Positions 37,631 through 62,757 of a stretch of 64,000 nucleotides of DNA are shown one piece after another. The DNA is taken from positions 142,315 to 206,314 of the forward strand of contig JBAXIO010000002.1 in NCBI GenBank assembly GCA_037138335.1, given 5' to 3'. The notes beneath the pieces are model-generated. The model searched no databases, was not told the DNA's origin, and saw nothing but the letters and a program-made list of their open reading frames with translations. The stretch's first letter is position 1. The number at the start of each line of letters is the position of its first letter. The translations under genes and the position numbers were made by a program. Origin of the DNA: Bacteroidota bacterium (GTDB lineage: Bacteria; Bacteroidota; Bacteroidia; Bacteroidales; FEN-979).

Positions 37631-38740
37631 ATGAAAAAGCTCTCATGTATTCTTTGCCTGCTGGTTCTGGGGTGGATATTGCCGATGACATCCGCCCTGG
37701 GACAGGACATGAATTTCACGCAGTATTTCAGTGCACCCCTCTATGTGAACCCTGCTTTTACCGGCATCAATACCGGTGTGCGTGCAAGGTTCCTGTTCAG
37801 GGATCAATGGCCTGCTGCCCCTATTGCTTACAAATCATATTATTTTTCGGCTGACCTGGGTGACCGTGCATTGCCTGGCGCAGGCGGCCTTGGGCTCGTT
37901 GTACAATCGGACAACCCCGGCGCGGGCCTGATCAATAACCTGAATGCCGCCCTGACTATCGGCGTACGTATTCCTATCACAAGTTTCCTGGTGGCCCAGG
38001 TTGGTGTTAAAGCGGGGATCATGCAAAGGAGGATTTCCTATGATGACCTTGTTTTTACGAGCAGCCTTGACCCCAGGTACGGAAATATATACCAGAGCGG
38101 GTTCACTGATTTCAACGCGAGCAAGAGAGTGGTTCCTGATTTCGGCGCAGGTGGTTTGTTACAATTCTCTTCAACAGAAGGTAATATTACCGGTAATATC
38201 GGATTTGCAGTTGATCATATTTTCAAACCTGATGTGTCTTTTCTTTCTGTCGGTTCTTCACAGTACCCCAGGAAATGGGTGGGGCATTTCGACCTTGTAA
38301 TTTCAACCGGTCCGGGAGGAAATTCTAATGCCATGTATGCCAGTTCCTCTGAACCTCTTAAAGTCAACATCGGAGGTTTATATATGAATCAGGCTAACCT
38401 GAATTCACTGGAAGTCGGCCTAAACCTGTTAAAATACAATATTTACCTGGGTTGCTGGTACAAGAGCACGCTCACCGGCATCGTCAATAGTTCCTGTGCA
38501 ATCCTGGCCGGGTATAAGTTCAATTTCTATGAGAATATGAGTGTGAAATTTATTTACTCCTACGATATACAGATTAGCGGTGCATTACAGGGAACCGGAG
38601 GTGCGCATGAGATAAGCCTTATACTTGAGTTTGACAAGCTGTCAATCTTCGGAGGCGGAGGCGGTGGCAGTTCACTCCCAGGAGGGACCGGAGGTTCCAA
38701 GAGATATGGCGGGCCAATGGAATGCCCGAGTTTCTATTAA
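37631..38740 (+). CDS. PorP/SprF-family type IX secretion system membrane protein
   Basis: 369 aa with a signal peptide. N-terminal signature 'QDMNFTQYFSAPLYVNPAFTG'. Gly-rich tail ending in 'CPSFY'. Starts 25 nt after the type-B-CTD cargo gene. Confidence 0.86.
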   Translation: MKKLSCILCLLVLGWILPMTSALGQDMNFTQYFSAPLYVNPAFTGINTGVRARFLFRDQWPAAPIAYKSYYFSADLGDRALPGAGGLGLVVQSDNPGAGLINNLNAALTIGVRIPITSFLVAQVGVKAGIMQRRISYDDLVFTSSLDPRYGNIYQSGFTDFNASKRVVPDFGAGGLLQFSSTEGNITGNIGFAVDHIFKPDVSFLSVGSSQYPRKWVGHFDLVISTGPGGNSNAMYASSSEPLKVNIGGLYMNQANLNSLEVGLNLLKYNIYLGCWYKSTLTGIVNSSCAILAGYKFNFYENMSVKFIYSYDIQISGALQGTGGAHEISLILEFDKLSIFGGGGGGSSLPGGTGGSKRYGGPMECPSFY

Positions 38741-38764: not shown

Positions 38765-38796
38765 GAAGCCGGGCATCAACCCGGCTTCTTTTTTTT
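38765..38796. terminator. Bidirectional intrinsic terminator between PorP/SprF and icd
   Basis: 'AAAAAA-GAAGCCGGG-CATCAA-CCCGGCTTC-TTTTTTT'. A-tract and T-tract flank a 9-bp GC-rich stem. Overlaps the icd stop codon. Confidence 0.75.
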
Positions 38797-40057
38797 ACAT
38801 GTTCGCAATAATCTCTGAACCGAATTCAGAGCATTTGAGCTTGGTGGCCCCTTCCATCTGGCGTTCAAAGTCATAGGTAACCCTTTTCTTCGCAATCGCC
38901 CCTTCCAGCCCTTTAACAATAAGGTCTGCCGCTTCGTTCCAACCCATATATTCCAGCATCATTACACCCGAAAGGATGACCGAGCCCGGGTTCACCTGGT
39001 CTTTATTGGCATATTTCGGAGCGGTGCCGTGCGTTGCTTCAAACACAGCATGGCCTGTTACATAATTGATATTGGCACCGGGAGCAATCCCGATCCCGCC
39101 TACAATAGCTGCCAGAGCATCGGAAATATAATCGCCGTTAAGGTTCAGGGTTGCTATTACCGAATACTCTGCCGGGCGGGTCAGGATCTGCTGGAGGAAT
39201 GCATCGGCAATCACATCCTTGATGATGATGCGGCCTTCCGCAACAGCCTTTTTCTGGGCATCTTCTGCAGCCTGTTCCCCATCCTTGTCCTTTATCTTAT
39301 CATACCGGGCCCAGGTAAAGACCTTATCCCCGAATTCTTTTTCGGCAAGATCATATCCCCAGGTCTTAAACATCCCTTCAGTGAATTTCATGATATTCCC
39401 TTTATGGACAATGGTGACCGAAGGAAGTTTCTTTTCAATGGCATACCCGATAGAAGCTCTTACCAGGCGCTCAGTTCCATCTTTCGACACAGGCTTTATG
39501 CCAATGGATGAACTTTCGGGGAACCGTATTTTTTTTACACCCATTTCCAGGATCAGGAAATCGAGGACCTTCTTTACTTCAGCTGTCCCCGCCATCCATT
39601 CAATACCGGCATAAATGTCCTCGGAGTTCTCACGGAAAATTACCATCTCGGTAAGTTCGGGCTTCTTAACCGGAGAAGGAACCCCCTTGAAATATCTCAC
39701 GGGCCTCAGGCAAACATAAAGATCAAGTATCTGCCTCAAAGCAACGTTGAGCGAACGTATCCCTCCGCCTACCGGTGTGGTGAGAGGCCCTTTGATGGCA
39801 ACAAGATATTCCCTGATTTCATCCAGGGTTGCCTGGGGTAACCATTCCCCTGTTTGCTTGAAAGCTTTCTCCCCTGCAAGGACTTCTTTCCAGTGTATCT
39901 TCCTTTTCCCGGCATATGCTTTTTCAACAGCTGCATCGAAAACTTTCACACTTGCATTCCATATGTCAGGGCCTGTGCCATCTCCTTCAATGAAAGGAAT
40001 TACCGGATTCTCCGGAACTACCAGCCTGCCACCAGACAATGTTATCTTTTCTCCCAT
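38795..40057 (-). CDS. icd: NADP-dependent isocitrate dehydrogenase (homodimeric prokaryotic type)
   Basis: 420 aa. '[25 protein letters not shown]' and '[26 protein letters not shown]' signature blocks. Confidence 0.95.
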
Positions 40058-40084
40058 GGTATATAATTATTAATTAGTAAATAT

Positions 40085-43000
40085 TCAGTCATTAATTACC
40101 TTCACAAGGGCACCCCATTTCCGGTCAATCTCAAAGAAATGCTTCATATAGTAATTACCGAAAAGGAAATGGGCCTTGATGACTTTGATCCCGTAAGCCG
40201 ACATGCTGACAAAGAAATTGGCGATCATGGCCGAAGCTATCCCTTTCCCCTGTAATGACGAAGTTACTACGATGCCATCAAACAGGGCGGTCGTCTCATC
40301 CAGGTAATGCCAGGTAAGCCCGCCGATGATCTTTCCACGGGCATCGGTAACAACATGCTGGTGATCATGTTTACTGATCTCTTTTGGATAATTCTCCCTG
40401 AAGAACATCTGGTATAACTGCCCGATCTCCCGGGGTTCTCCCGGCTCATATTGCACGTAATGTTTCCCCTCGGCGTCGTTGATGTCGAAACGGACAAGCA
40501 CATGCTCTTTTGAACGTTCACCTATTTTCAGCAGGTCAATATGCTGATCGGTTTGCAGTCGAGGGAAGACCATATGGCTGAAAATGTTTTTATCTTCTTC
40601 TGCCGACAACGATGATTGCAAGTCCGACAGCTCGATAAGCTGGATAGGCAAGGTTTCCTGCTCTTCCTGCATTTTTTCAAGGAGCTTGTCAAATGAGGCT
40701 CTGACACCCTCGTCTGAATCCATAAAGAAGGTATGCCTGTAAAAATAATACCTGATCAGGTCGGGCCATGAATTCAGCCTGAACAGGTCCATGAGCTCCG
40801 TGATGGTTTGTTCCTTGGCTGCTGCTGTAGTGAGGGGATTTATACGGTACCAGTCTATATACTGGTCTATAGCTGAGTATAACGACAGCGGCAGGTGGAA
40901 GCGTTTGATGTTTTCGGTCAGGTACTTATTCAGGTGGTCCTTCAGGCTGGTCAGATCATGGCAAACGACTTTGTGCTTTTTTAGTTCGACTCTGAGTTTG
41001 ACCAGGAATTCAATTGCTTCTTCCTTGCCCAGGGCTTCAATGCAGGCATCAAAAATCCAGTTGATTTCTATCTGCTTTTTAACCCAGGGATACAAAGCCG
41101 TGGTTTTGCAATAGTAGTCCAATACGATAGGGATGACCAGGGAAAGCGGGCCTTTGTATTCCGACCAGCCGGTAAGGGTAAGTATGACAGCCGATTCACG
41201 GAAATCCATTTCAGGTATGGAAATATTGGTAGGGGTAATTGCGCCGGGAACAATCTGGTAGCCGCTGTGGTGCCATGCTTTAAACACTGTTGCCAGGGAA
41301 CGGATGAACACTTTTTTCCATGCGTTCGGTTTTACATAGCCGGAGGAGCGGTGGATTTCGGCAAACTCCCTTATTTTATCCCATGCGGTAAGCCCTCCTA
41401 TATACTGTGTGCTGAGTAGTCCCAGGTTGGGCCTGCTGCTTCCCAGCAGGGAAGCAACAGCAGCCCCGTAAGGAAAACCCGCTAGCGAAGCCTGCCAGTA
41501 AAATGTATCGGGGTTGGGTTTGAATTCAGGGTTGTTGCTGATCACGAAGTGAAGATCAAAATGTTTCCCGGCCTTAGTGTTTACACTGAGCCTGTAATGC
41601 TTGAATTCCTTGTACGCAAGTAGCCTCAGCACCCATATGCCTCCCGGGGGCACGTCTTTCAGATCAAAATCCCATTCATTAAAAGTCAGGATAATGCTTT
41701 CTTCCAGGAACTTCGTAGTCCTGAAAATCTTTATTATCCTTTCTTTATCAGTTTCCTGGATCCCGTGTTCAAAAATGAGTTTAGGTTTCCATGTTGAAGC
41801 AGGATATTTAGGGCCTCTTGCTTCAATATGGTTTTCAAATACCCGGGCCAGCCTGTAAAAATATTCCTCTGCTTTTTTTGACAGGTAAGGATCCTGGCGG
41901 TGAAGGATCCACCTTGATAATTCAGCCCTGACCGGTACATAGAAATCAAGATGCTGGAGTGCAAAGTTGTAAAGCATCCTGAGAACATTTTCGAACTGCT
42001 GCCTCATTTTCACCGGTGCAGGCCAGGGGAAGTGGGTACGGTAGAAATAAAGCCTTTGCTTGAGTGCATCAAGCCTGTGTTTCCCGATTTTGGATGAAGC
42101 GATGGCACGGATCGACTGCTCATTTAAGAACGAAAGACCCGATTCGAGGAACATGGGCAGGTTGGAAATTGTCTCAGGCTGAGGGGCATGGATCAGGATG
42201 GTGCGATAGGCCAGGCATCGGATCTCTTCGGAAGGATGAAATGCCAGGGCTTCAAGCCTCAGCCTCATCACTTCGGCAAGCCGGGGTTCCGAGTCGCCGA
42301 AAATATCGCCTATCTTAACGATAGCGCTGATTGAAGAAGACTCAGGGCCGAACAGGGCCTGGCACAGCAGCAGGTTGGCATTGGCCAGGAACTGGTCTCG
42401 GATATTCCTTGGGGCCTTGCATTCATAATTGCCTGTCAGCCCGGGTTCTGCAAGATAAATGCCTTCGGCCATCCCCTTCACGGGGACATCCCAACCTTCC
42501 TTAACCGGACAGAAGGAAATCAGGGAAGGGTTCCCTGTCCAGAGCTTTGGGGAACGGGTGAAAAGCCCCAGGTCAATTGTATCGTCACTTAAAGTATATA
42601 CCAGGTCACCTATAATCCAGCTTCCCGGCTTGCGTTTCCTGATATTCAGAACCTGTTTTGTTCTCTTGTTTACAAGCTGGTCTTTGCCAAAAACAATATC
42701 CGTTTCAAGTATGCCAAGGTCCCTGTATACCCACTTTGGGACAGAACAGGAAACAGCCCCTTTTTTAATCAGGACTACATTGCTCTGATAGAGGGAATCT
42801 ATCAGTTTCAGAAACCCGTTTTCAATGGCTTTCCTGTTGTAGGAACCTTTGGGGGTTAATTCCCCTTTTTCGGCGCTGAAGTCCCTGTCGAGAAGGGCGA
42901 AATTCACTACCCTCTCATAAGGCGCAACATCCTTGTTCGCCGACATGACAATCTGGTGGAAATATTCCCTGAGGTTATCGCCTTTACAAGAGGCGAAGAG

Positions 43001-44716
43001 GGAATCGGATTTGTCGGGTACAATGAGAAGGACATTATAAGGCCTGTTGTCCCCGACAACAAAAGTGCTCTTTATGCCCGGTACATTATGAAATTTCTTT
43101 TCGATGACCTGGGGGGCGACTGTCTGGCCACGATTATTTTTGTAAATGTCCTTAACCCTGTCGACGATCTCATGATACCCGTCTTCATTGATGATGAAAA
43201 CATCTCCTGTTTTAAGCCAGTAATCATCTTTTTTCGAAACGGGATAAGGGATGGTGCCTCCCGGCGGGGAATCTTCGAGGTAGCGTGCGATATAATGCCC
43301 GCTGATCTCGAGTTCACGGTTCTCGTTGAGCCTTGTAAAAACCCCGGGGAGGGGTGTGCCTACTTTAAAATCCTGGTAACGGAACGGGGGGGTCATAGTG
43401 ATGCCGCCGGTTGCTTCTGTCATTCCAAAGCCGCTGGATAATGCGATGCCGTTTTCGTTGAAGAAACGGAACACCTGGGGGTCAAGGTAACCTGCAGCGC
43501 TAAGCCCCCATTTCAGGCGGTTGCCGGTTATATCCTCGATGGCCCTGGTTCTTAATTCGGCACTCTCTATGCCGCTGATCCTTTCCTGGCACTTCTCAAA
43601 TAACTCCTGCCAGCGAAGCGGTATGCTGATAAACCCGCTTGGGTTGACCTTCGGAAATAAGGAAAACAATGTATCTGCGGAGTTGTTCCCGGCAAAAACA
43701 TAGGTGCCGTGCCAGTAAATCGCACCGCACATCTCAAGATAACGTCCGAATGTATGGAAAAGCGGAAGGTAGCAAAGGAATGTCTCATCCCCGACCTCTG
43801 GGAGGGCCGCAGCCCGGGCAAAGCGCTTGGATACAATATTATAAACCGAGAAAGAAACTCCCTTGGGCAAACCGGTGCTTCCCGAGGTGAACATGGTTGT
43901 TGCAACTTCATTGGTCGGTTTCAGCGGCCTGGCCGAAAGAAGGTTCTCAATCTCAGAACGGGAGATCTTTTTACATTCCTCCTGGAGGTATTTGTTGGCA
44001 GATCCCTTCTTTGATCCCGGGCCCATGGTAAAGATACGGAAAGGCCGGGCGGTCAGCTGGCAGACTTTTTCGAGGACCGAAACTCTCTGAGGCGTATCGG
44101 CAACGGCAATGTTGACCGAAAGTTTGTCAAACAACGGGGCCAGTATTTCAGCGCCAAAATGGGTGCTGAACGGAGAAACGAAAATCCCGGAACAAAGGCA
44201 GGAAAGATCCACACAGGCTCCTTCAACGCAGTTCTCGGTGTAAAGTGCAATCCTTGGCTCCTCTTCAACGGCCATGTAAAAAACGGCGGCAATCTCCCTA
44301 AGGTGGCGGTATATCTGCTCATAAGTCCAATCCACCGTGGGCGAAACCGACATGTCCCGGAAAAGGACCTGACGCGGGTGCTCGTTTACCCTTTGGGCCA
44401 ACAAGTCATTCAGCGAATACTGTGTCCTTTGCAGGACGGTGAACACTGTTTCTGCCCAGCGGTCTCTTTGCCCTTGATCAAGATTCCGCAGGAAGCCTGG
44501 CCTGCCGGTCAAGTCAAGGAAATCCATCCAGGATCCCCTGCCGGGTAAACCGGCCGCGGGTTTTCTATGGGAAATGCCTGGTTTGGGTTTGCGTTTTGCT
44601 GTCGAATGATCCCATGATGAAACCGCTGCTTCCGCCTCAGCCAGAACTTTAGATGCCAAAGCCTGCTTTTGCTTGTCTTTCGCATTCTTCCAGGAACCAA
44701 GTACTTCAGCCAGCAT
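40085..44716 (-). CDS. 1543-aa fusion protein: long-chain acyl-CoA-synthetase-like adenylating module + ~700-aa unassigned helical region + C-terminal GNAT acyltransferase
   Basis: AMP-binding core motifs 'TSGSTGLPKGV', 'SSGFGMTEATGG', 'WLKTGD', 'IVDRVKDIYKNNRGQTVAPQVIE', 'FVVGDNRPYNVLLIVP', 'ELTPKGSYNRKAI' (aa ~95-690). GNAT motif A 'IVVTSSLQGKGIASAMI' (aa ~1400-1543). No signal peptide or TM helix. The stop lies 27 nt upstream of the icd start. Confidence 0.85.
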   Translation of the reverse strand: MLAEVLGSWKNAKDKQKQALASKVLAEAEAAVSSWDHSTAKRKPKPGISHRKPAAGLPGRGSWMDFLDLTGRPGFLRNLDQGQRDRWAETVFTVLQRTQYSLNDLLAQRVNEHPRQVLFRDMSVSPTVDWTYEQIYRHLREIAAVFYMAVEEEPRIALYTENCVEGACVDLSCLCSGIFVSPFSTHFGAEILAPLFDKLSVNIAVADTPQRVSVLEKVCQLTARPFRIFTMGPGSKKGSANKYLQEECKKISRSEIENLLSARPLKPTNEVATTMFTSGSTGLPKGVSFSVYNIVSKRFARAAALPEVGDETFLCYLPLFHTFGRYLEMCGAIYWHGTYVFAGNNSADTLFSLFPKVNPSGFISIPLRWQELFEKCQERISGIESAELRTRAIEDITGNRLKWGLSAAGYLDPQVFRFFNENGIALSSGFGMTEATGGITMTPPFRYQDFKVGTPLPGVFTRLNENRELEISGHYIARYLEDSPPGGTIPYPVSKKDDYWLKTGDVFIINEDGYHEIVDRVKDIYKNNRGQTVAPQVIEKKFHNVPGIKSTFVVGDNRPYNVLLIVPDKSDSLFASCKGDNLREYFHQIVMSANKDVAPYERVVNFALLDRDFSAEKGELTPKGSYNRKAIENGFLKLIDSLYQSNVVLIKKGAVSCSVPKWVYRDLGILETDIVFGKDQLVNKRTKQVLNIRKRKPGSWIIGDLVYTLSDDTIDLGLFTRSPKLWTGNPSLISFCPVKEGWDVPVKGMAEGIYLAEPGLTGNYECKAPRNIRDQFLANANLLLCQALFGPESSSISAIVKIGDIFGDSEPRLAEVMRLRLEALAFHPSEEIRCLAYRTILIHAPQPETISNLPMFLESGLSFLNEQSIRAIASSKIGKHRLDALKQRLYFYRTHFPWPAPVKMRQQFENVLRMLYNFALQHLDFYVPVRAELSRWILHRQDPYLSKKAEEYFYRLARVFENHIEARGPKYPASTWKPKLIFEHGIQETDKERIIKIFRTTKFLEESIILTFNEWDFDLKDVPPGGIWVLRLLAYKEFKHYRLSVNTKAGKHFDLHFVISNNPEFKPNPDTFYWQASLAGFPYGAAVASLLGSSRPNLGLLSTQYIGGLTAWDKIREFAEIHRSSGYVKPNAWKKVFIRSLATVFKAWHHSGYQIVPGAITPTNISIPEMDFRESAVILTLTGWSEYKGPLSLVIPIVLDYYCKTTALYPWVKKQIEINWIFDACIEALGKEEAIEFLVKLRVELKKHKVVCHDLTSLKDHLNKYLTENIKRFHLPLSLYSAIDQYIDWYRINPLTTAAAKEQTITELMDLFRLNSWPDLIRYYFYRHTFFMDSDEGVRASFDKLLEKMQEEQETLPIQLIELSDLQSSLSAEEDKNIFSHMVFPRLQTDQHIDLLKIGERSKEHVLVRFDINDAEGKHYVQYEPGEPREIGQLYQMFFRENYPKEISKHDHQHVVTDARGKIIGGLTWHYLDETTALFDGIVVTSSLQGKGIASAMIANFFVSMSAYGIKVIKAHFLFGNYYMKHFFEIDRKWGALVKVIND

Positions 44717-44810
44717 TATTTTAAATTTAAATCAGAATGATTAAAGGAAACATGCAAATTTATTGATTCAAATTGTTAATTTTGAATTCGAATAAAAGAT
44801 ATTTTTTTAC

Positions 44811-47069
44811 ATGTTGCTCAAATTAGAAAACATAGAGGCTATCTATAAGAAAATCAGTGCTTCTGTAGAAAAAGCCAGGAAGATATTTAATCGGCCGTTA
44901 ACACTTACCGAGAAGCTTTTATACGGGCATTTGTTTGATGCGGTTCCTGATAAACCCTATGATAAGGGGAAGGATTATGTGAATTTCCTTATCGACAGGG
45001 TGGCTATGCAGGATGCCACGGCCCAGATGGCGCTGCTCCAGTTTATGACTGCGGGAAGGACCACATCGGCCGTTCCGGCAACGGTTCATTGCGATCATCT
45101 TATTCTTGCCAGGGAAGGTGTAAGCCCTGACCTTGCATCAGCGCTTTCACAAAATGCCGAAGTGTACAATTTCCTGCAATCAGTTTCGGCTAAATACGGT
45201 ATTGGTTTCTGGAAACCCGGTGCAGGCATCATCCACCAGGTGGTGTTTGAAAATTATGCTTTCCCCGGCCAGATGATGATAGGGACAGATTCACATACCC
45301 CGAATGCAGGCGGCCTGGGGATGCTTGCCATTGGCGTTGGGGGTGCCGATGCGGTAGATGTGATGTCGGGAATCCCGCTCGAGCTTAAAATGCCGAAGAT
45401 CATGGGAGTAGAGCTTACCGGCAGACTCAGCGGGTGGGTTTCGGCAAAAGATGTTATCCTGCTGCTCTCCGGCATACTTACGGTAAAGGGAGGTACAGGG
45501 TTCATCATCGAGTATTTCGGTGAAGGGGCCGAATCCCTTTCATGCACCGGAAAAGGTACTATCTGTAATATGGGCGCCGAAGTTGGGGCCACCTGCTCGG
45601 TTTTTCCATATGATGCCAGCATGAAGCGATACCTGGAATCAACCGGGCGCAAAGCCGTTGCCAACATCGCCAACCAGTATGCATCCTGTCTCAGGGCCGA
45701 TCCTGAAGTTGCGGCTGATCCCGCAAAATATTACGACCAGGTCATCACAATAAACCTTTCGGAACTTGAGCCTTATGTGAACGGCCCGTTTACCCCCGAC
45801 CTCGCCAACCCGGTCTCGGCACTGGCGGCTTTTCTCAAAGAGAATAATTATCCCGACACACTTGAGGTCGGGCTTATAGGTTCCTGCACCAACTCTTCAT
45901 ACGAAGACCTTTCAAGGGCCGCGTTCATTGCCCGCCAGGCAAAAGCCAAAAAACTGAACGTAAAATCAGGCTTTATCATCACGCCAGGCTCCGAACAGAT
46001 CAGGTTTACCGCCGAAAGGGATGGCATTCTTGAAGCCTTTGACGAAATCGGAGGGGTCATCATGGCCAATGCCTGCGGCCCCTGTATAGGCCAGTGGTCA
46101 AGGAAAATGGATGATCCCGGGAGGAAAAACTCCATTGTGACCTCATTTAACAGGAATTTCGCCAAGCGCAACGACGGCAATGCAGGCACGCATGCTTTCG
46201 TTGCATCCCCCGAAATGGTGACGGCCATGGCCCTTGCCGGGAGGCTTTCATTCAATCCTGCAAAAGATACTATTATAAATGCGGATGGCATAGCGGTTAT
46301 GCTCGACGAGCCTCAAGGTTACGAGCTGCCCCCAAAGGGTTTCGAAGTTGACGACCCGGGTTTCCTTGCCCCCCCCGACGATAGCGAAAATATAGTTGTT
46401 AAGGTGGATCCCGGCTCCGGCAGGCTGCAGCTCCTCGAGCCTTTCGATGCATGGGATGGAAAGGATATAAGGGGCATGCGCCTGCTTATCAAAGCACAGG
46501 GCAAGTGCACCACCGACCATATTTCAATGGCCGGGCCCTGGCTGAAATACCGCGGGCACCTCGACAAGATCTCCGACAATCTCCTGATGGGCGCGGTCAA
46601 TATATTCAACGGCAAAACCAATTCGGTCAGGAACGGGGTTACCGGTGAATATGCCGAAGTGTCAAAAACAGCAAGGTATTATAAAGCCAATGCCATCCCC
46701 TCACTGGTAATCGGCGATGAGAATTACGGAGAAGGGTCTTCACGTGAACATGCTGCGATGGAACCCAGGTACCTGGGAGTGAGAGCCGTCCTTGTAAGGT
46801 CTTTCGCAAGGATCCACGAGACCAACCTGAAAAAGCAGGGGATGCTGGCGCTTACCTTCGCCAATCCCTCTGATTATGATAAAATTCTCGAAGACGATGT
46901 ATTTGACATCATCGGCCTTGAGACTTTTACACCTGGCAAACCGCTGAAACTGAAAATCCACCATGCCGGTGGAAGTACGGAGGAAATACTCCTTAACCAT
47001 ACTTACAGCGACCTCCAGATCAAATGGTTCAAAGCAGGAAGCGCCCTGAATTTCATGAAAGAAAAGTAA
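44811..47069 (+). CDS. acn: Aconitate hydratase, mitochondrial-like type
   Basis: 752 aa. '[14 protein letters not shown]', '[13 protein letters not shown]', '[12 protein letters not shown]', '[11 protein letters not shown]' (three cluster cysteines). Length and N-terminus fit the mitochondrial-type enzyme rather than the ~890-aa AcnA/AcnB. Confidence 0.95.
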
Positions 47070-47099
47070 TAATTTTGAATTTATAACAAGCAGATTCAT

Positions 47100-48449
47100 A
47101 TGGATATACAGAAATTTATAACAGAGCATGCCCCTGAGACCCAGGCTTCATGCACTATTGACGAGCAGCTCTTCAAACAGTTTGATGTGAAACGGGGCCT
47201 GCGTAACGCCGACCATACCGGTGTGCTTGTCGGGCTAACCAGGGTCGGCAGTGTAGTGGGATATGAGAAAATTGACGGCAAACTTGAGGCTATTGACGGT
47301 AAGCTTATCTATCGCGGGATTGATATAAACGATCTCGTTCATGGGACACAAACCGAGAAACGGCCCGGCTTCGACGAAACCGTTTTTCTCCTGCTATTCG
47401 GAAGGCTCCCTAAAGCCGCGGAACTGAAAGCCTTCAGTGAAGGCCTGGCCGAGCAGAGGGCCCTGCCCGAAAATTTCAACCGTGACATGATCCTCACCAT
47501 GAAGGGCAAGGACATCATGAATATGATGGCCCGTTCGATCCTCGCCCTATACACCCTTGACGAGCAGGCCGACGATACTGAGATCCAGAATATCATCAGG
47601 CAATCGATAAGCCTTATCGCAAAGTTCCCCACCATTGCAGTGTATTCTTACCATGCAATGCGCCACCTGATTTATTATGATACCTTAAGTGTAAGGTACC
47701 CCGATAAAAAACTGGGCACGGCCGAGAATTTCCTGTATATGCTCAAGGGAAATGACTACACGCCACTTGAAGCCGAACTTCTCGACCTCTGCCTTGTGCT
47801 CCATGCCGAACACGGAGGCGGTAACAATTCAACCTTTACCACCCGGGTCGTGAGTTCCAGCGGCACCGATACCTACTCGGCCATTGTTGCGGCCATCGGC
47901 TCCCTTAAAGGGCCCCTGCACGGAGGCGCTAACATCGAGGTCATCCACATGATGAACAACATCAAAGCCAATATCAAGAATTGGGGCAATGATGATGAAG
48001 TTACCGATTACCTCCGCAAGATCCTGAAGAAAGAAGCCTATGACAAAAGCGGAAAGATCTATGGTTTCGGGCATGCCGTATACACCGTTTCAGATCCCCG
48101 CGCCATCCTCCTGAAAGAAAAAGCCAGGCTGTTGTCAAAGGAAAAAGGACGCGAAAAGGAAATGGCGCTCTATGAAGCTATCGAGCGCATAGGACCTGAG
48201 ATCTATTATGAATTCAAGGGAACCAGGGATAAACTCATCTCCCCGAATGTTGACTTCTACAGCGGTTTCGTTTACGAATGCATCAAGATACCCAAGGAAC
48301 TGTATACCCCGCTTTTTGCTATATCCCGGATCTCAGGATGGTGTTCCCACCGGCTTGAAGAACTCATCAGCGGCCGCAGGATCATACGCCCTGCATACAA
48401 GGCAGTTGAGCCCAGTAACAGCTACATCCCACTTACCGAGAGAGGTTAG
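47100..48449 (+). CDS. gltA: Citrate synthase
   Basis: 449 aa with catalytic blocks 'LVLHAEHGGGNNSTF', 'GFGHAVYTVSDPR' and 'NVDFYSG'. Confidence 0.9.
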   Translation: MDIQKFITEHAPETQASCTIDEQLFKQFDVKRGLRNADHTGVLVGLTRVGSVVGYEKIDGKLEAIDGKLIYRGIDINDLVHGTQTEKRPGFDETVFLLLFGRLPKAAELKAFSEGLAEQRALPENFNRDMILTMKGKDIMNMMARSILALYTLDEQADDTEIQNIIRQSISLIAKFPTIAVYSYHAMRHLIYYDTLSVRYPDKKLGTAENFLYMLKGNDYTPLEAELLDLCLVLHAEHGGGNNSTFTTRVVSSSGTDTYSAIVAAIGSLKGPLHGGANIEVIHMMNNIKANIKNWGNDDEVTDYLRKILKKEAYDKSGKIYGFGHAVYTVSDPRAILLKEKARLLSKEKGREKEMALYEAIERIGPEIYYEFKGTRDKLISPNVDFYSGFVYECIKIPKELYTPLFAISRISGWCSHRLEELISGRRIIRPAYKAVEPSNSYIPLTERG

Positions 48450-49218
48450 GGTAGATACTGCGCATCGTCCTGTTCACGAAGTAAGAAGAAAGTGAAGCAG
48501 GCAGCATCACAGAGAGGATGAAATAATTCAGGCGGTTTGCCCATCCGTGGATGCAAACCGCTTTTTTTCCGCACATCCTTATAGCATACCCTGCAACCTT
48601 ATCCGGATCAGCCATTCTCACAGGGCCGCCGGGTTTGCTTTCCAGGAATTTAGGCGTGTTGATTATCCCGGCGCAGCAAACACTTATCCCGATATCCAAT
48701 GGTTTAAACTCGTAATAGAGTGAACGCGCAAGTGAAATGAGAAATGCCTTGCTGGCTGCATAGGGAGTTACATAGACAGGTGACAGCAATCCGGCCAGGG
48801 ATGACATTAACAGTATTTTTCCAGGTTTTTTTGCATCCCTGAGATACCTGGCAAAAGCATGCACAAGAAGCATCGTTGTGAGGTTGTTTACTTCAATGAA
48901 CCTTTCGAGGTTCCCCGCATCATGTTCCAGGAAGGGTTTAACCTCCGACATGGCCGCACAATACACCAGCATCCGGCATCCTGTTTCCTCTACCTGGCCC
49001 ATGCATATCTTCCAGGCATCCTCTCCGGCCAGGTCAATGCAAGATGTCAGGGTTTTAACCTTGTATTTTTTTTCGGCCTTTTCAGCGGTCTTCTTCAGCG
49101 CTTCCGGCTGCCGGTCAATAAGGACCAGGTTAAACCCTTGCTCAGCAAGGAGTGTGGTGAATGCCTCTCCCAAACCATCAGCCGATCCTGCGATCATGGC
49201 CCATTGCCCTTCTTTCAT
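48433..49218 (-). CDS. Short-chain dehydrogenase/reductase (SDR)
   Basis: 'AMIAGSADGLGEAF' (Gly-rich NAD(P) motif), 'SSLAG', 'YAASKAF' (YxxxK). The ATG at 49218 is preferred over the TTG at 49245. The 3' end overlaps the citrate synthase stop by 17 nt (convergent). Confidence 0.8.
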   Translation of the reverse strand: MKEGQWAMIAGSADGLGEAFTTLLAEQGFNLVLIDRQPEALKKTAEKAEKKYKVKTLTSCIDLAGEDAWKICMGQVEETGCRMLVYCAAMSEVKPFLEHDAGNLERFIEVNNLTTMLLVHAFARYLRDAKKPGKILLMSSLAGLLSPVYVTPYAASKAFLISLARSLYYEFKPLDIGISVCCAGIINTPKFLESKPGGPVRMADPDKVAGYAIRMCGKKAVCIHGWANRLNYFILSVMLPASLSSYFVNRTMRSIYPNLSR

Positions 49219-49265
49219 GATATTTCCTAAATTTGCGGCCTGCAATAATACTTAAATTCCCGGGA

Positions 49266-50447
49266 ATGTCTAAGTTGCTTTTTTTCTTCCTCCGCTTAAT
49301 GAAGGCCTGGCAATCCTTTATTTTAAGGATTAAAGGTAAGACTGCGGATGATATCCACCAGGAGCGTATCGTTTCGGGTAAGGCATGGGATGAATTCTGC
49401 GATAACCTTAAAGCCGCCGGGGCCGCCCTGAAAATGCCGGGTACTCCAAAGGATGCTTTCAACCAGGCCGAAGGCTTGCGTTACCTGAGCCGCCTGACCA
49501 GGGGAGGGCTTGAAGCCTTCATGGAATACAACGACCCCGCATTTCCTGTCCTTAGGCGCACCGCCCATGAAACAATCAAACTGGGGGCCGATAACCCCGA
49601 CAATTATTACTTCAACGCCCAGATCAGCGGGGAATATGAATACCGGCTTAAGGGAAAACGCAATACCGTCCATTACTTCGGGCTGTTCACCCAGAACGGG
49701 AATTACGGGACAACAGGCGGAATGGCGCCCTGTGCAGTCCTCGAGCATAATGAGATTCAATATGAGCCCGACGGCAGTTTTGAAGTCATCCTCAGCAGGG
49801 AAAAGAAAGGAAAGAACTGGCTTAAGATTGAGGAATCTACAAGCATGCTCATGCTTCGCCAGACCTTCCTCGACCGCTTTGCCGAAACTCCGGCGGAAGT
49901 TTGCATAGAAAACCTTGACGGACGAATAAGTCCGGGCAATATTACACCGGCCATGGTGGATGAAGGACTTAAAACCGCATCCATGTTCGTGGGGGGTGCA
50001 GCCCTTATGTTTTCCAGCTGGGCTAAGGGATTCCGTGAGCACGCAAACAAACTGCCCCTGTTTGACCCGAAAAAATCAAACGATGCCGGGGGCGATGCCT
50101 CTATAATTTATTATCACAGCTACTGGAAGCTGGCTGCCGGCGAGTCTTTGATTATCGAAGTAAAACCGCCCGCCTGCGATTCCTGGAACTTCCAGCTGAA
50201 CAATTACTGGTTGGAGTCGCTTGACTACCGGTATTTCACCATTTGCATAAACAAAGCTTCTGCAAAATATGAGCCTGACGGCTCCGTGAAGGTGGTTGTG
50301 GCACATTCAGACCCGGGTGTGCCGAACTGGATCAATACATGCGGGCATAACGAGGGAACCATGTTATGGCGCTGGTACCGCCTTGCCCCCGGTTCGGAAG
50401 CAATTGAACCGGCATGCAGGGTGATAAAAGACGGCAGTCGGTTATAA
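49266..50447 (+). CDS. Hypothetical protein, tentatively DUF1214-like
   Basis: Long ORF; the ATG at 49266 is preferred over the TTG at 49233. 'LGADNPDNYYF' and 'GLRYLSRLTRGG' remind me of DUF1214/DUF1254-type proteins, but I cannot verify this. Confidence 0.4.
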   Translation: MSKLLFFFLRLMKAWQSFILRIKGKTADDIHQERIVSGKAWDEFCDNLKAAGAALKMPGTPKDAFNQAEGLRYLSRLTRGGLEAFMEYNDPAFPVLRRTAHETIKLGADNPDNYYFNAQISGEYEYRLKGKRNTVHYFGLFTQNGNYGTTGGMAPCAVLEHNEIQYEPDGSFEVILSREKKGKNWLKIEESTSMLMLRQTFLDRFAETPAEVCIENLDGRISPGNITPAMVDEGLKTASMFVGGAALMFSSWAKGFREHANKLPLFDPKKSNDAGGDASIIYYHSYWKLAAGESLIIEVKPPACDSWNFQLNNYWLESLDYRYFTICINKASAKYEPDGSVKVVVAHSDPGVPNWINTCGHNEGTMLWRWYRLAPGSEAIEPACRVIKDGSRL

Positions 50448-50448
50448 G

Positions 50449-50469
50449 CAGTCGGCAGTCGGCAGTCAG
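50449..50469. repeat. Tandem heptamer repeat (GCAGTCG)2-GCAGTCA
   Basis: Three direct heptamers start 2 nt after the stop codon at 50447. Same stop-proximal placement as the arrays at 15474 and 18764. Confidence 0.7.
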
Positions 50470-50492
50470 TAAGGAAGAAATGAAACGAAGTA

Positions 50493-56238: not shown

Positions 56239-56289
56239 ATTGCCAGGTAATCAGCCACTTCCGGATTCAATATATATACCATCACTACT

Positions 56290-59816: not shown

Positions 59817-59823
59817 ACGCCGG

Positions 59824-62747: not shown

Positions 62748-62757
62748 TTTTACCCTG

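What the first reader, a model, noticed from the sequence alone, without database searches (positions are those of the whole stretch)
40085..44716. 1543-aa cytoplasmic fusion (acyl-CoA-synthetase-like + ~700-aa unknown + GNAT) in an operon-like position upstream of icd
The N-terminal ~600 aa carry all the core motifs of a long-chain-type AMP-forming acyl-CoA synthetase. The last ~140 aa are a GNAT fold with an intact acyl-CoA-binding motif A. Between them lie ~700 aa that I cannot assign: helical, with a HEAT-like stretch 'LRLEALAFHPSEEIRCLAYRTIL'. One polypeptide could therefore both make an acyl-CoA or acyl-adenylate and transfer the acyl group. It is conceptually parallel to, but different from, Pat/YfiQ-type protein acetyltransferases, which fuse an NDP-forming synthetase-like domain to a GNAT. 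The gene ends 27 nt before icd on the same strand and faces the acn-citrate synthase pair. This raises the hypothesis of an acylation-based regulator or metabolite-conjugating enzyme tied to the TCA branch. I do not recognise it as a described enzyme.
Basis: partly seen in the sequence, partly recalled or inferred. Interest (0 to 1): 0.7.

Follow-up and report, generated by a model that had tools for sequence, protein, structure and literature searches.

The report
Ligase–pseudokinase–acetyltransferase fusion linked to citrate synthase
This is a real, widespread but unstudied 1,500-residue bacterial protein that joins an acyl-CoA-making enzyme, a degenerate kinase-like domain and an acyl-transferring enzyme, and its gene sits next to citrate synthase in very distant bacteria, so it is probably an unknown acylation device at the entry to the TCA cycle.

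Summary
The 1543-aa ORF (40085..44716, minus strand) is real. It is cytoplasmic and conserved, with 316 representatives at the 50% identity level, all sharing the same ~1500–1700-aa architecture.

The N-terminus is an ANL adenylating / acyl-CoA-ligase domain with every catalytic residue invariant. The C-terminus is a GCN5-type GNAT.

The "unknown" middle matches no Pfam, NCBIfam or PDB sequence. High-confidence AlphaFold2 models (pLDDT 90 and 94) resolve it into three parts:
- a small beta domain;
- a HEAT-like helical domain;
- a divergent protein-kinase-like domain.

In the window's clade the kinase-like domain has lost the catalytic Asp and the alphaC Glu, so it is a pseudokinase. A distant Acidobacteriota/Gemmatimonadota clade keeps both residues.

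The conserved gene neighbour across the family is citrate synthase, not icd. It is found near the gene in three deeply diverged clades, in different arrangements and with two citrate synthase types. In the distant clade 34 of 86 loci have it, against about 0.2 expected by chance. The icd and acn linkage is specific to one lineage.

AceK-like and prpE/prpC-like readings were tested and rejected. No paper in the searched library and no curated family describes this protein.

The most likely function is Pat-like in logic: an acyl-CoA-generating protein acyltransferase acting at the citrate synthase node. The acceptor and the carboxylate substrate are unknown.

The parts
40085..44716 (-). Whole gene: 1543-aa multidomain protein (ANL, beta domain, helical domain, kinase-like domain, GNAT)
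   Evidence: ORF list and translation. Full-length homologues.
44432..44716 (-). N-terminal extension, residues 1-95. The first ~60 residues are poorly conserved. A conserved 'LDxT..FL..R.RWA' segment precedes the ANL core.
   Evidence: Consensus of alignment A1. Homologues at ~62% identity cover only 96% of the query.
42782..44431 (-). ANL (AMP-forming adenylating / acyl-CoA ligase) domain, residues ~96-645, of the long-chain FAA1/FadD11-like type with an AMP-binding_C_3 C-terminal subdomain
   Evidence: Pfam PF00501 and PF23562. NCBIfam best hits are long-chain ligases, all far below their cut-offs. PDB sequence hits are CAR A-domains, malonyl-CoA synthetase and 4CL. Catalytic residues are invariant.
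42437..42769 (-). Small beta-rich domain, residues ~650-760. G703, Y707 and N729 are invariant across the family. 'FCPVKEGWD' is invariant in clades A-C.
   Evidence: Secondary structure (DSSP) of the AF2 model. Conservation. No match in any library.
41780..42394 (-). All-helical, HEAT-like domain, residues ~775-979. It contains the conserved 'RRRLEALAxHPxEEVRxxAYRxLL' stretch.
   Evidence: AF2 model helices H126-H330 at pLDDT about 90-97. Invariant R/E/L/R positions. The whole-model Foldseek top hits are helical-plus-kinase proteins such as Vps34, mTOR and PI4KA, but these matches are weak.
40550..41779 (-). Divergent protein-kinase-like domain, residues ~980-1389. In this protein it is a pseudokinase: T1071 replaces the alphaC Glu and A1159 replaces the catalytic-loop Asp. 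N1164 and D1171 are retained.
   Evidence: Domain model with pLDDT 94 and pTM 0.91. 94 PDB hits at E<=1e-3; the 50 listed are all kinase-fold. Column statistics by clade.
40088..40540 (-). GCN5-type GNAT acyltransferase domain, residues ~1393-1543. Motif A is Q1489-G-K-G1492-I-A. An acidic residue, D1480, lies on strand beta4.
   Evidence: Pfam PF00583. Profile against PDB sequences: Tetrahymena GCN5, E 2e-7. Foldseek: GCN5 (TM 0.60-0.63), PatZ GNAT, HP0935, SACOL1063. Conservation.
40058..40084 (-). 27-nt AT-rich junction to icd with no terminator-like hairpin. Co-transcription is plausible but not shown.
   Evidence: Sequence. Consensus scan. In related genomes the spacing is about 30-258 nt, median about 99 nt.
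38795..40057 (-). icd, prokaryotic NADP-isocitrate dehydrogenase. Its linkage to the big gene is clade-specific.
   Evidence: NCBIfam NF005425, 744 bits. Found downstream on the same strand in 43 clade-A loci.
44717..44810 (.). 94-nt divergent intergenic region between the big gene and acn; presumed to hold promoters for both directions
   Evidence: Sequence. No function was tested.
44811..47069 (+). Aconitase, mitochondrial type. Its linkage to the big gene is clade-specific.
   Evidence: TIGR01340, 1098 bits. Synteny.
47100..48449 (+). Citrate synthase (PRK14032 type): the conserved genomic partner across the family
   Evidence: NF010635, 665 bits. Linkage statistics across clades A, B and D.

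Best explanation
The gene encodes a soluble five-module enzyme.

(1) An ANL domain with an intact active site adenylates a carboxylic acid and, most likely, converts it to an acyl-CoA. The acid is probably not acetate. The domain resembles long-chain or medium-chain ligases, and Gly sits where acetyl-CoA synthetase has its pocket-closing Trp.

(2-4) A small beta domain, a HEAT-like helical domain and a kinase-like domain form one rigid body. In this clade the kinase-like domain has lost the catalytic Asp and the alphaC Glu but keeps the two metal-ligand positions. It is best read as a pseudokinase that serves as a scaffold, as a nucleotide sensor, or as a docking platform for a target.

(5) A GCN5-type GNAT at the C-terminus uses an acyl-CoA to acylate an amine, most likely a protein lysine.

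The only gene neighbour conserved across the family is citrate synthase. The most likely role is therefore a Pat/AcuA-like acylation switch at the acetyl-CoA-to-citrate entry of the TCA branch. Citrate synthase would be the favoured target. In this lineage Icd or aconitase may be targets as well.

Shown here: domain identities, active-site conservation, architecture, and the gene linkage. Inferred: CoA-thioester formation, the hand-over of the acyl group from ANL to GNAT, a protein acceptor, and citrate synthase as the target.
For: Architecture and reality of the gene:
- ORF, domain calls and homologues.
- The middle region occurs only inside this architecture: 316 representatives, with the region always starting about residue 630-720.

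ANL domain under catalytic selection:
- K285, E434, D505 and K526 in 56/56 and K623 in 54/56, down to 25% identity.

GNAT domain:
- Motif A and an acidic beta4 residue are conserved (G1492 in 52/56; D/E1480 in 52/56).
- The closest solved relatives are protein lysine acetyltransferases: GCN5 by sequence profile at E 2e-7, and GCN5, PatZ and HP0935 by fold.

Middle region:
- AF2 model with pLDDT 90 and pTM 0.85, consistent with a rigid multidomain body.
- Kinase-like fold: 94 hits at E<=1e-3.
- The loss of catalytic residues is specific to clades A-C.

Citrate synthase linkage:
- Clade A: 27/47 loci, and 20/26 of those with at least 5 kb of flank on both sides.
- Clade B: 5/9 loci, in the co-directional order cs-UPF0047-gene.
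- Clade D: 34/86 loci, and 10/16 with at least 5 kb on both sides, against about 0.14-0.28 expected by chance.
- The linkage covers three arrangements and two citrate synthase types that are only 25-29% identical.

Precedents:
- GNAT genes next to their target's gene, and a stable GNAT-ANL complex: acuA-acsA (PMC11255334).
- A GNAT that acetylates and inhibits ICDH: Rv2170 (PMC5428333).
- An acyl-CoA synthetase coupled to lysine acyltransferases, including GCN5/KAT2A, for local donor supply (PMC12356255).
Against: - No direct evidence identifies the acceptor. Similarity between GNATs predicts substrate poorly.
- Clade C (8 loci: 5 Acidobacteriota/Thermoanaerobaculia, plus Fibrobacteraceae, Krumholzibacteriia and one unclassified MAG) has no citrate synthase within 8 kb. 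About 40% of well-flanked clade-D loci also lack it.
- The ANL domain is of a fatty-acid-ligase type, and its connection to citrate synthase is not obvious.
- No deacylase, carrier protein or other partner recurs nearby.
- The linkage is equally compatible with a pathway relationship, in which the enzyme supplies acyl-CoA or acetyl-CoA, as with a regulator-target relationship.
- The full-length protein could not be modelled, so the position of the ANL domain relative to the GNAT domain is unknown.
Confidence: 0.38

Rival explanations
1. Self-regulating acyl-CoA synthetase. The ANL domain is the metabolic enzyme, activating a fatty or other organic acid whose carbon enters the TCA cycle through acetyl-CoA and citrate synthase. 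The fused GNAT acylates the ligase's own catalytic A10 lysine (K623), in cis or between subunits, as feedback. The pseudokinase senses adenine nucleotides. This would be an all-in-one version of Acs/FadD plus sensor plus AcuA/Mt-Pat.
For: - ANL ligases are the archetypal substrates of bacterial GNAT lysine acetyltransferases. Mt-Pat, which has a cAMP sensor domain fused to its GNAT, acetylates and inactivates Acs and several FadD enzymes (PMC8856561). AcuA forms a stable complex with AcsA (PMC11255334).
- K623 is present in 54/56 members.
- The retained Asn and Asp metal ligands in the pseudokinase are compatible with nucleotide binding.
- Two clade-B loci (L042, L049) place a short-chain fatty acid transporter, IDH and citrate synthase upstream on the same strand, which looks like a pathway.
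Against: - The sequence around K623 ('ELTPKGS') lacks the PX4GK context recognised by Pat-type enzymes.
- A 750-aa scaffold is a large investment for simple feedback.
- Ordinary FadD or Acs genes are not typically linked to citrate synthase.
- No structural model places the GNAT near K623; the full-length protein could not be folded.
Confidence: 0.25
2. Small-molecule conjugating enzyme. The ANL domain makes an acyl-CoA and the GNAT transfers the acyl group to a metabolite amine, for example an amino acid derived from the TCA branch such as glutamate. This is the logic of the ACSM plus glycine N-acyltransferase pair or of N-acyl amino acid synthases. The kinase-like domain binds the acceptor, or in the distant clade phosphorylates it.
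For: - Both catalytic domains are conserved.
- The best single Foldseek hit of the kinase-like domain is a small-molecule (APH-type) kinase, the corramycin phosphotransferase 8agy.
- Kinase-plus-GNAT fusions acting on one small molecule exist, for example AAC(6')-APH(2'') (general knowledge).
- Glutamate dehydrogenase lies two genes upstream in L070.
Against: - The GNAT's closest relatives by profile and by fold are protein acetyltransferases.
- No biosynthetic, export or tailoring genes recur nearby.
- Linkage to citrate synthase specifically, and not to GDH or an amino-acid pathway, is not predicted by this model.
Confidence: 0.2
3. The TCA linkage carries no functional meaning. The gene is a generic fatty-acid ligase / acetyltransferase fusion that merely sits in a conserved housekeeping neighbourhood.
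For: - Within clade A the arrangement could be simple inherited synteny.
- Clade C shows no linkage.
- UvrA, a housekeeping gene, also recurs next to citrate synthase in 12 clade-D loci.
Against: - Citrate synthase adjacency recurs in three clades that are only 25-50% identical to one another, in different orientations and at different distances.
- It involves two non-orthologous citrate synthase types.
- It is more than 100-fold above expectation in clade D.
Confidence: 0.07
4. AceK-like regulator: the kinase-like domain phosphorylates or dephosphorylates the adjacent isocitrate dehydrogenase.
For: - A kinase-fold domain preceded by a helical domain lies directly upstream of a prokaryotic-type NADP-IDH, the enzyme class that AceK controls.
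Against: - hhalign of the family profiles against E. coli AceK gives a probability of 0.2-1.2%.
- AceK is not among the top 50 structural hits.
- The window protein lacks the catalytic Asp and the alphaC Glu.
- The icd linkage is absent from the clade that keeps those residues.
Confidence: 0.03

Closest known systems
Pat / PatZ / YfiQ protein lysine acetyltransferases (large acyl-CoA-synthetase-like domain + C-terminal GNAT)
   Same: - A large multidomain cytoplasmic protein with a C-terminal GNAT.
- The GNAT resembles the PatZ GNAT structurally (Foldseek 9it0 and 9isq, E about 2-4e-3).
- An N-terminal domain related to acyl-CoA synthetases.
- A role in central carbon metabolism is plausible.
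   Different: - The N-terminal domain here is AMP-forming (ANL, PF00501), not the NDP-forming CoA-ligase / ATP-grasp type.
- It keeps all catalytic residues, whereas the Pat domain is regarded as regulatory (general knowledge).
- An extra ~750 aa (beta domain, HEAT-like domain and kinase-like domain) has no counterpart in Pat.
- The genomic partner is citrate synthase, not acs.
AcuA-AcsA and Mt-Pat-FadD/Acs systems (a GNAT that acylates the A10 lysine of ANL ligases, with a sensor domain or partner)
   Same: - They combine an ANL ligase, a GNAT and a small-molecule sensor: cAMP for Mt-Pat (PMC8856561), and the energy charge sensed by AcuB for AcuA (abstract of PMC13121692, listed).
- AcuA and AcsA form a physical complex, and their genes are neighbours (PMC11255334).
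   Different: - Here all parts are one polypeptide.
- The candidate sensor is a pseudokinase, not a cNMP-binding or CBS domain.
- The ligase is of the long-chain type and lacks the PX4GK context.
- Self-acylation has not been shown.
ACSS2 coupled to lysine acyltransferases, including GCN5/KAT2A (local acyl-CoA supply to a protein acyltransferase)
   Same: - The same two enzyme superfamilies (an ANL acyl-CoA synthetase and a protein lysine acyltransferase, for GCN5/KAT2A of the GNAT type) are proposed to work as a donor-maker plus transferase unit (PMC12356255 and its reference to Zhu et al. 2025).
   Different: - The eukaryotic case is a non-covalent nuclear complex acting on histones.
- Here the two are covalently fused in bacteria, a kinase-like scaffold lies between them, and the linkage is to citrate synthase.
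Protein-kinase-like superfamily (ePKs, Bud32/PRPK, APH-type small-molecule kinases, ABC1/UbiB-like Rv3197)
   Same: - A bilobal kinase fold.
- A catalytic-loop-like 'xGDxSPxN' motif and a 'DF/DY' motif. In the distant clade these come with an alphaC Glu.
   Different: - TM-scores are only 0.26-0.56.
- No sequence-level match to any kinase family.
- The Asn-to-Asp spacing is 7 residues, against about 13 in canonical kinases (general knowledge).
- The window protein lacks the catalytic Asp and the alphaC Glu.
Rv2170 of M. tuberculosis (a GNAT that acetylates and inhibits isocitrate dehydrogenase)
   Same: - It is a precedent for GNAT-mediated lysine acetylation controlling a TCA-branch enzyme (PMC5428333).
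   Different: - No relationship beyond the shared GNAT superfamily was tested; the architecture of Rv2170 was not examined here.
- The target here is unknown, and the conserved partner is citrate synthase, not ICDH.

Membership tests
ANL superfamily (AMP-forming adenylating enzymes) | Core motifs: the A3 P-loop T/S-S/G-G-T/S-T-G-x-P-K-G, the A5 (G/Y)xTE, the A7 (T/S)GD, the A8 hinge Rx(D/K)x6G, and the A10 catalytic Lys. A two-subdomain fold. | tested here: met
   Pfam PF00501 at E 3e-41 and PF23562 at 6e-12. T277, K285, E434, D505 and K526 in 56/56; R520 in 55/56; K623 in 54/56.
A named acyl-CoA ligase equivalog (FadD, FadD11, Acs, MenE, malonyl-CoA synthase, and so on) | A score above the curated NCBIfam cut-off of the family | tested here: not met
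   The best hit is PRK06187 at 124 bits against a cut-off of 476. FadD11 scores 103 against 950. All 77 hits are far below their cut-offs.
Acetyl-CoA synthetase (Acs) | A Trp that closes the acyl pocket in the 'WWQTE' segment, restricting the substrate to acetate | tested here: not met
   The corresponding segment is G429-F-G431-M-T-E434, with G431 invariant in 56/56. Which position is equivalent to the Trp is from general knowledge of ACS biochemistry.
GNAT superfamily | The GNAT fold, and motif A (Q/R-x-x-G-x-G/A) that binds the pyrophosphate of acyl-CoA | tested here: met
   PF00583, 26 bits against a cut-off of 20.7. Profile against PDB sequences: GCN5, E 2e-7. Foldseek: GCN5 with target-normalised TM 0.60-0.63, SACOL1063 with 0.69. 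Q1489-G-K-G1492-I-A, with G1492 in 52/56.
GCN5/Pat-type protein lysine acetyltransferases | A general-base Glu on strand beta4, and a peptide-binding cleft | tested here: inconclusive
   An acidic residue (D/E1480, 52/56) lies on beta4, but two residues C-terminal to the position aligned with the residue taken here as Tetrahymena GCN5's catalytic Glu, the E of 'FAEVAF' (the catalytic role of that Glu is from general knowledge). The acceptor cleft could not be examined.
Pat / PatZ / YfiQ | An N-terminal ~700-aa domain homologous to NDP-forming acetyl-CoA synthetase (CoA-binding, succinyl-CoA-ligase-like and ATP-grasp modules) | tested here: not met
   Pfam finds only AMP-binding domains in the N-terminal 650 aa and nothing of the NDP-forming type anywhere in the protein.
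Protein-kinase-like (PKL) superfamily: fold | A bilobal fold with a beta-rich N-lobe, an alphaC helix and a helical C-lobe | tested here: met
   The domain model has pLDDT 94. 94 PDB hits at E<=1e-3; the 50 listed are all kinase-fold, with Foldseek probability 1.00, but target-normalised TM is only 0.26-0.56.
Protein-kinase-like superfamily: catalytic competence | A beta3 Lys (or equivalent basic residue) paired with the alphaC Glu; a catalytic-loop Asp and Asn; a DFG Asp | tested here: not met
   Window protein: T1071 in place of the Glu, A1159 in place of the Asp, N1164 and D1171 present, R1042 on beta2. In clades A-C the Asp is present in about 2 of 39 members and the Glu is replaced by Thr or Ser in 34 of 39. 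Clade D keeps the Glu in 14/17, the Asp in 12/17, the Asn in 12/17 and the DFG-like Asp in 16/17.
AceK (isocitrate dehydrogenase kinase/phosphatase) | Homology to the AceK regulatory and kinase domains | tested here: not met
   hhalign of profiles A3 and A6 against E. coli AceK gives probabilities of 0.2% and 1.2%. No AceK Pfam hit. AceK is not in the top 50 Foldseek hits.
PI3K/PIKK-like kinases (helical domain followed by a kinase domain) | A helical solenoid packed on an atypical kinase domain with a PI3K-type catalytic loop | tested here: inconclusive
   The whole-model top hits are Vps34, mTOR and PI4KA, but E is only about 4e-4, TM is 0.2-0.28 and rmsd is 17-20 Å. With the kinase-like domain alone, the top hits are ePKs and APH-like kinases.
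PrpE/PrpC (methylcitrate cycle ligase with 2-methylcitrate synthase) | The linked synthase is a 2-methylcitrate synthase (TIGR01800 or related), and prpB/prpD are nearby | tested here: not met
   The linked synthases score 565-751 bits on citrate (Si)-synthase NF007128 (cut-off 344), but only 120-169 bits on TIGR01800 (cut-off 421). The window's synthase fits NF010635. No prpB or prpD was seen.
NRPS / carboxylic acid reductase-type A-domain systems | A phosphopantetheine carrier domain downstream of the adenylation domain | tested here: not met
   There is no PP-binding hit. The segment after the ANL domain is a beta-rich domain, not a four-helix carrier. The CAR similarity is confined to the A-domain.

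The most novel reading that the evidence does not exclude
This family is a previously unrecognised class of central-metabolism regulator. It is a single polypeptide that senses a carboxylic acid by converting it to an acyl-CoA, integrates the energy state through a kinase or pseudokinase domain, and writes an acyl mark on citrate synthase. In the Acidobacteriota/Gemmatimonadota clade it may add a phosphate as well. It would thereby gate carbon entry into the TCA cycle in Bacteroidota, Acidobacteriota, Gemmatimonadota and related phyla.
Probability: 0.2. Interest if true: 0.85.

Novelty: new variant of a known kind. Interest (0 to 1): 0.66.

Why it matters
Control of citrate synthase, and of the oxidative TCA branch generally, is almost unstudied in Bacteroidota, Acidobacteriota and Gemmatimonadota, which are abundant in environmental samples.

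A conserved 1500-aa protein fuses an active acyl-CoA ligase, a kinase-derived domain and a GCN5-type acyltransferase, and it is genetically tied to citrate synthase across phyla. That makes it a concrete, testable candidate for such control.

It would also be a bacterial, covalently fused counterpart of the 'metabolic enzyme feeds an acyltransferase locally' principle known from eukaryotic chromatin.

The family contains a natural active-kinase versus pseudokinase split that could be exploited experimentally.

Independently of function, the middle region defines at least one new kinase-like family and two unassigned domains that have no Pfam model.

Tried and rejected
Searches that found nothing for the middle region:
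- Pfam at E<=10 and NCBIfam: nothing.
- Single-sequence and profile searches of PDB sequences: only the ANL and GNAT parts match. The middle profile's best E is 0.099.

Rejected readings:
- AceK. hhalign against E. coli AceK gives a probability of at most 1.2%.
- Methylcitrate (prpE/prpC). The linked synthases are bona fide citrate (Si)-synthases.
- A cryptic carrier-protein or NRPS-like reading. There is no PP-binding domain and the post-ANL segment is beta-rich.

Search for a second conserved partner (deacetylase, phosphatase, transporter):
- Clade B has UPF0047/YjbQ in 5 loci, an SCFA transporter in 3 loci, and an APH-like kinase downstream in 2 loci.
- Clade D has UvrA, unrelated SDRs and peptidases.
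- Nothing recurs across the family.
- The SDR next to the window's citrate synthase is not orthologous to the clade-D SDRs, at 18-27% identity.

Other:
- Literature searches for the architecture returned nothing relevant.
- Cluster look-ups gave no informative names.
- The first attempt to scan metagenomes, with a 9-sequence alignment, failed for lack of a conserved stretch. It was repeated with 4 sequences.
The ANL-GNAT geometry is therefore unknown.
- The beta and helical domains could not be searched separately by fold.

Full report
**1. The observation**

The window contains a 4632-nt ORF on the minus strand (40085..44716, ATG start, 1543 aa).

Pfam places these domains:
- AMP-binding at residues 107-464 (E 3e-41).
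- AMP-binding_C_3 at residues 529-645 (E 6e-12).
- A GNAT (Acetyltransf_1) at residues 1443-1529 (26 bits, above the 20.7 cut-off).

Nothing is found between about residues 650 and 1440, even at E<=10.

- A prokaryotic NADP-isocitrate dehydrogenase gene starts 27 nt after the stop codon on the same strand (38795..40057). No terminator-like hairpin lies in the gap.
- A mitochondrial-type aconitase (44811..47069) and a citrate synthase (47100..48449) are divergently oriented across a 94-nt spacer.
- A PorP/SprF gene and a 2942-aa PKD-repeat protein with a type IX secretion signal lie further downstream. Together with the homologues' names, they place the window in Bacteroidota.

The protein has no signal-like N-terminus and no transmembrane-like segment.

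**2. It is a conserved family with a fixed architecture**

- At least 120 full-length proteins (about 1529-1560 aa) share 56-96% identity. Where they are named, they come from Bacteroidota or Bacteroidales MAGs and carry only generic names.
- An exhaustive HMMER search of 1.84 billion representatives with the middle region alone found 316 representatives. Every full-length hit is 1470-1710 aa, and the middle region always starts about residue 630-720. The shorter hits look like fragments. The middle region is therefore never found on its own or in another architecture.
- A scan of species-representative genomes found 64 loci, all of them MAGs. They fall into three clades:
  - Clade A: 55-96% identity, uncultured Bacteroidales and Prolixibacteraceae-like.
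  - Clade B: 42-50% identity, Bacteroidales.
  - Clade C: 33-36% identity in the middle region (36-40% over the whole protein); Acidobacteriota/Thermoanaerobaculia, Fibrobacteraceae, Krumholzibacteriia.
- A fourth clade, D (about 1600 aa, 25-28% identical), is abundant in metagenomes. It is named only in Acidobacteriota and Gemmatimonadota MAGs.

**3. The two terminal enzymes look catalytically competent**

In a 56-sequence alignment reaching down to 25% identity:
- The ANL P-loop (T277, K285), E434, D505 and K526 are invariant.
- R520 is present in 55/56 and the A10-position lysine K623 in 54/56.

The domain is of the long-chain FAA1/FadD11-like type (PF23562; NCBIfam best hits). It is far below every curated cut-off, so it belongs to no named equivalog. 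The closest solved structures are CAR adenylation domains and assorted CoA ligases.

The residue aligned with the pocket-closing Trp of acetyl-CoA synthetase is an invariant Gly (G431). Acetate is therefore unlikely to be the preferred substrate. This is an inference from known ACS biochemistry combined.

For the GNAT domain:
- It has motif A (Q1489-G-K-G1492-I-A; G1492 in 52/56) and a conserved acidic residue on strand beta4 (D/E1480 in 52/56).
- A profile of the C-terminal 170 aa finds Tetrahymena GCN5 as the best solved relative (E 2e-7).
- The model superposes on GCN5 (TM 0.60-0.63), the GNAT of E. coli PatZ, HP0935 and SACOL1063.

**4. The 'unknown' middle**

An AlphaFold2 model of residues 650-1543, built with a 67-sequence alignment, is confident (pLDDT 90, pTM 0.85). 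It shows four parts:
- A small beta-rich domain (about residues 650-760). It carries the most conserved non-ANL residues: G703, Y707 and N729 are invariant, and 'FCPVKEGWD' is invariant in clades A-C.
- An all-helical domain (about residues 775-979).
- An alpha/beta domain (about residues 980-1389).
- The GNAT domain.

Foldseek with the whole model returns helical-plus-kinase proteins (Vps34, mTOR, PI4KA), protein kinases and GNATs. These whole-model matches are weak.

Refolding residues 974-1394 alone gives pLDDT 94 and pTM 0.91. Foldseek then finds 94 PDB hits at E<=1e-3. The 50 listed all have the protein-kinase-like fold: CDC7, PRPF4B, Eph, FGFR and KIT kinases, PRPK/Bud32, the APH-type corramycin phosphotransferase, and Rv3197. 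TM-scores are only 0.26-0.56. This is a divergent kinase-like domain, not a member of a known kinase family. No sequence method detects it.

**5. Pseudokinase here, probably an active kinase in the distant clade**

The family has a catalytic-loop-like motif, P-G-x-x-S-P-x-N-V-x-V-P-E-x-D-F.

| Position (window residue) | Clade D (17 members) | Clades A-C (39 members) |
|---|---|---|
| alphaC-like Glu (T1071) | Glu in 14 | Thr or Ser in 34 |
| Catalytic-loop Asp, five residues before the Asn (A1159) | Asp in 12 ('ADPSPxNVIVPxHDY') | essentially absent (about 2) |
| Asn (N1164) | 12 | 38 |
| DFG-like Asp (D1171) | 16 | 31 |
| beta2 Arg (R1042) | 14 | 35 |

In the window protein the domain is best read as a pseudokinase that may still bind nucleotide and metal. 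In clade D it may be active.

AceK is the obvious candidate for a kinase-like domain next to icd. It is excluded at the sequence-profile level (hhalign probability 0.2-1.2%) and is absent from the top structural hits.

**6. What the gene is linked to**

*Clade A.* icd follows on the same strand in 43 loci, with spacing of about 30-258 nt (median about 99 nt) and one 2.6-kb exception. The acn-cs pair is divergent upstream. Taken alone, this could be inherited synteny.

*Clade B.* The order is citrate synthase - UPF0047/YjbQ - big gene on one strand. In L042 and L049 this block is preceded by a short-chain fatty acid transporter and a eukaryotic-type NADP-IDH.

*Clade D.* Citrate synthase lies next to the gene, or within about 6 kb, in 34 of 86 loci, many of which have very short flanks. 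Among loci with at least 5 kb on both sides the figure is 10 of 16. It is mostly convergent downstream, sometimes co-directional or upstream, at distances of 40 to 5724 bp. With about 565 kb of flank examined, chance predicts about 0.14-0.28 such loci.

*Citrate synthase types.* The citrate synthase of clades B and D is the mitochondrial-type citrate (Si)-synthase. It is only 25-29% identical to the window's PRK14032-type enzyme, and it is not a 2-methylcitrate synthase.

*Clade C.* No linkage: 0 of 8 loci.

*Other neighbours.* No other gene recurs across the family. No deacylase, phosphatase or carrier was found.

The conserved partner is therefore citrate synthase.

**7. How it most likely works**

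*Shown:* five modules, intact ANL and GNAT active sites, a rigid scaffold containing a degenerate kinase fold, and linkage to citrate synthase.

*Inferred:* the ANL domain activates a non-acetate carboxylate to an acyl-CoA. The GNAT transfers an acyl group to an amine, most likely a protein lysine. The HEAT-like and pseudokinase body positions the GNAT, docks a target, or senses nucleotides.

I favour a Pat/AcuA-like acylation switch at the citrate synthase node, with confidence about 0.38. The reasons are:
- The GNAT's closest relatives are protein acetyltransferases.
- Bacterial GNAT regulators are often encoded next to their target, as with acuA-acsA (PMC11255334).
- GNAT control of a TCA-branch enzyme has precedent: Rv2170 acetylates ICDH (PMC5428333).
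- Coupling of an acyl-CoA synthetase to lysine acyltransferases, including GCN5/KAT2A, is known in eukaryotes (PMC12356255).

The main rival (about 0.25) is a self-regulating ligase whose GNAT acylates its own K623. This would be a fused analogue of Mt-Pat acting on FadD and Acs (PMC8856561), with the citrate synthase linkage reflecting a shared pathway.

A small-molecule conjugating enzyme is the next rival (about 0.2).

Meaningless synteny (about 0.07) and an AceK-like kinase (about 0.03) are unlikely.

**8. Comparison with known systems, and novelty**

- The protein meets the definitions of the ANL and GNAT superfamilies and has a kinase-like fold.
- It fails the defining feature of Pat/PatZ, which is an NDP-forming synthetase-like domain.
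- It fails the tests for AceK, for PrpE/PrpC and for carrier-dependent A-domain systems.
- It does not reach any curated ligase family cut-off.
- No paper in the searched library and no source annotation describes the architecture.

I classify it as a new variant of a known kind: large multidomain GNAT acyltransferases that carry an acyl-CoA-synthetase-related domain. It contains a new kinase-like family and two unassigned domains. If the citrate synthase regulator reading is right, it would be a new class of central-metabolism regulator.

**9. Limits**

- All carriers are MAGs or metagenome contigs.
- The full-length protein could not be modelled.
- The substrate, the acceptor, and co-transcription with icd are untested.
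- The linkage statistics are not phylogenetically corrected. However, the three arrangements and the two citrate synthase types argue against simple inheritance.

Noticed in passing
window 28777..37605 (+) and 37631..38740 (+): A 2942-aa protein with about 28 PKD domains and a C-terminal CHU_C type IX secretion signal. It is followed directly by a PorP/SprF family membrane protein, which is a typical T9SS cargo-plus-PorP pair. This pair is also syntenic with icd in most clade-A loci.
   Followed up: partly
window 44811..48449 (+) and 38795..40057 (-): The TCA oxidative-branch genes are clustered: a mitochondrial-type aconitase (TIGR01340), a PRK14032-type citrate synthase and a NADP-IDH. The big gene is inserted between them.
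   Followed up: partly
window 54901..57879 (+): A 4Fe-4S plus pyridine-nucleotide-disulphide oxidoreductase fusion is followed by a multihaem cytochrome (cytochrome c7/c3, MtrC/MtrF-like domains). Extracellular-electron-transfer-like cytochromes are unexpected in a Bacteroidales genome. The ORFs further downstream (57861..63783) were not annotated.
   Followed up: no
window 48433..52833: After citrate synthase comes a run of genes: an SDR (minus strand), a DUF1214 protein, a sulfotransferase-family protein and a second SDR-like protein. The SDR and DUF1214 genes are syntenic with the locus in many clade-A genomes. Their function is unknown.
   Followed up: partly
L042:1052-5719, L043, L046, L049, L063 (clade B loci): A UPF0047/YjbQ gene always sits between citrate synthase and the big gene. 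In L042 and L049 a short-chain fatty acid transporter (PF02667) and a eukaryotic-type NADP-IDH lie upstream on the same strand. In L043 and L063 an APH-like kinase gene and a RapZ-C-like gene follow the big gene.
   Followed up: partly
L033 (clade A), between the big gene (ends about 5258) and icd (7848..9104): In this one genome about 2.6 kb is inserted between the big gene and icd. In the other 42 loci the spacing is about 30-260 nt. The content of the insert was not examined.
   Followed up: no
L065-L151 (clade D loci): UvrA recurs beside the linked citrate synthase in 12 loci. In one sub-lineage an SDR is convergent with the big gene. L065 has CBS-domain and LplA-B_cat genes next to citrate synthase. 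L070 has glutamate dehydrogenase and a sodium:dicarboxylate symporter nearby.
   Followed up: partly
all 151 related loci: Every genome or contig found to carry the family is a MAG or metagenome contig. No cultured isolate was identified, which will constrain experimental follow-up.
   Followed up: partly
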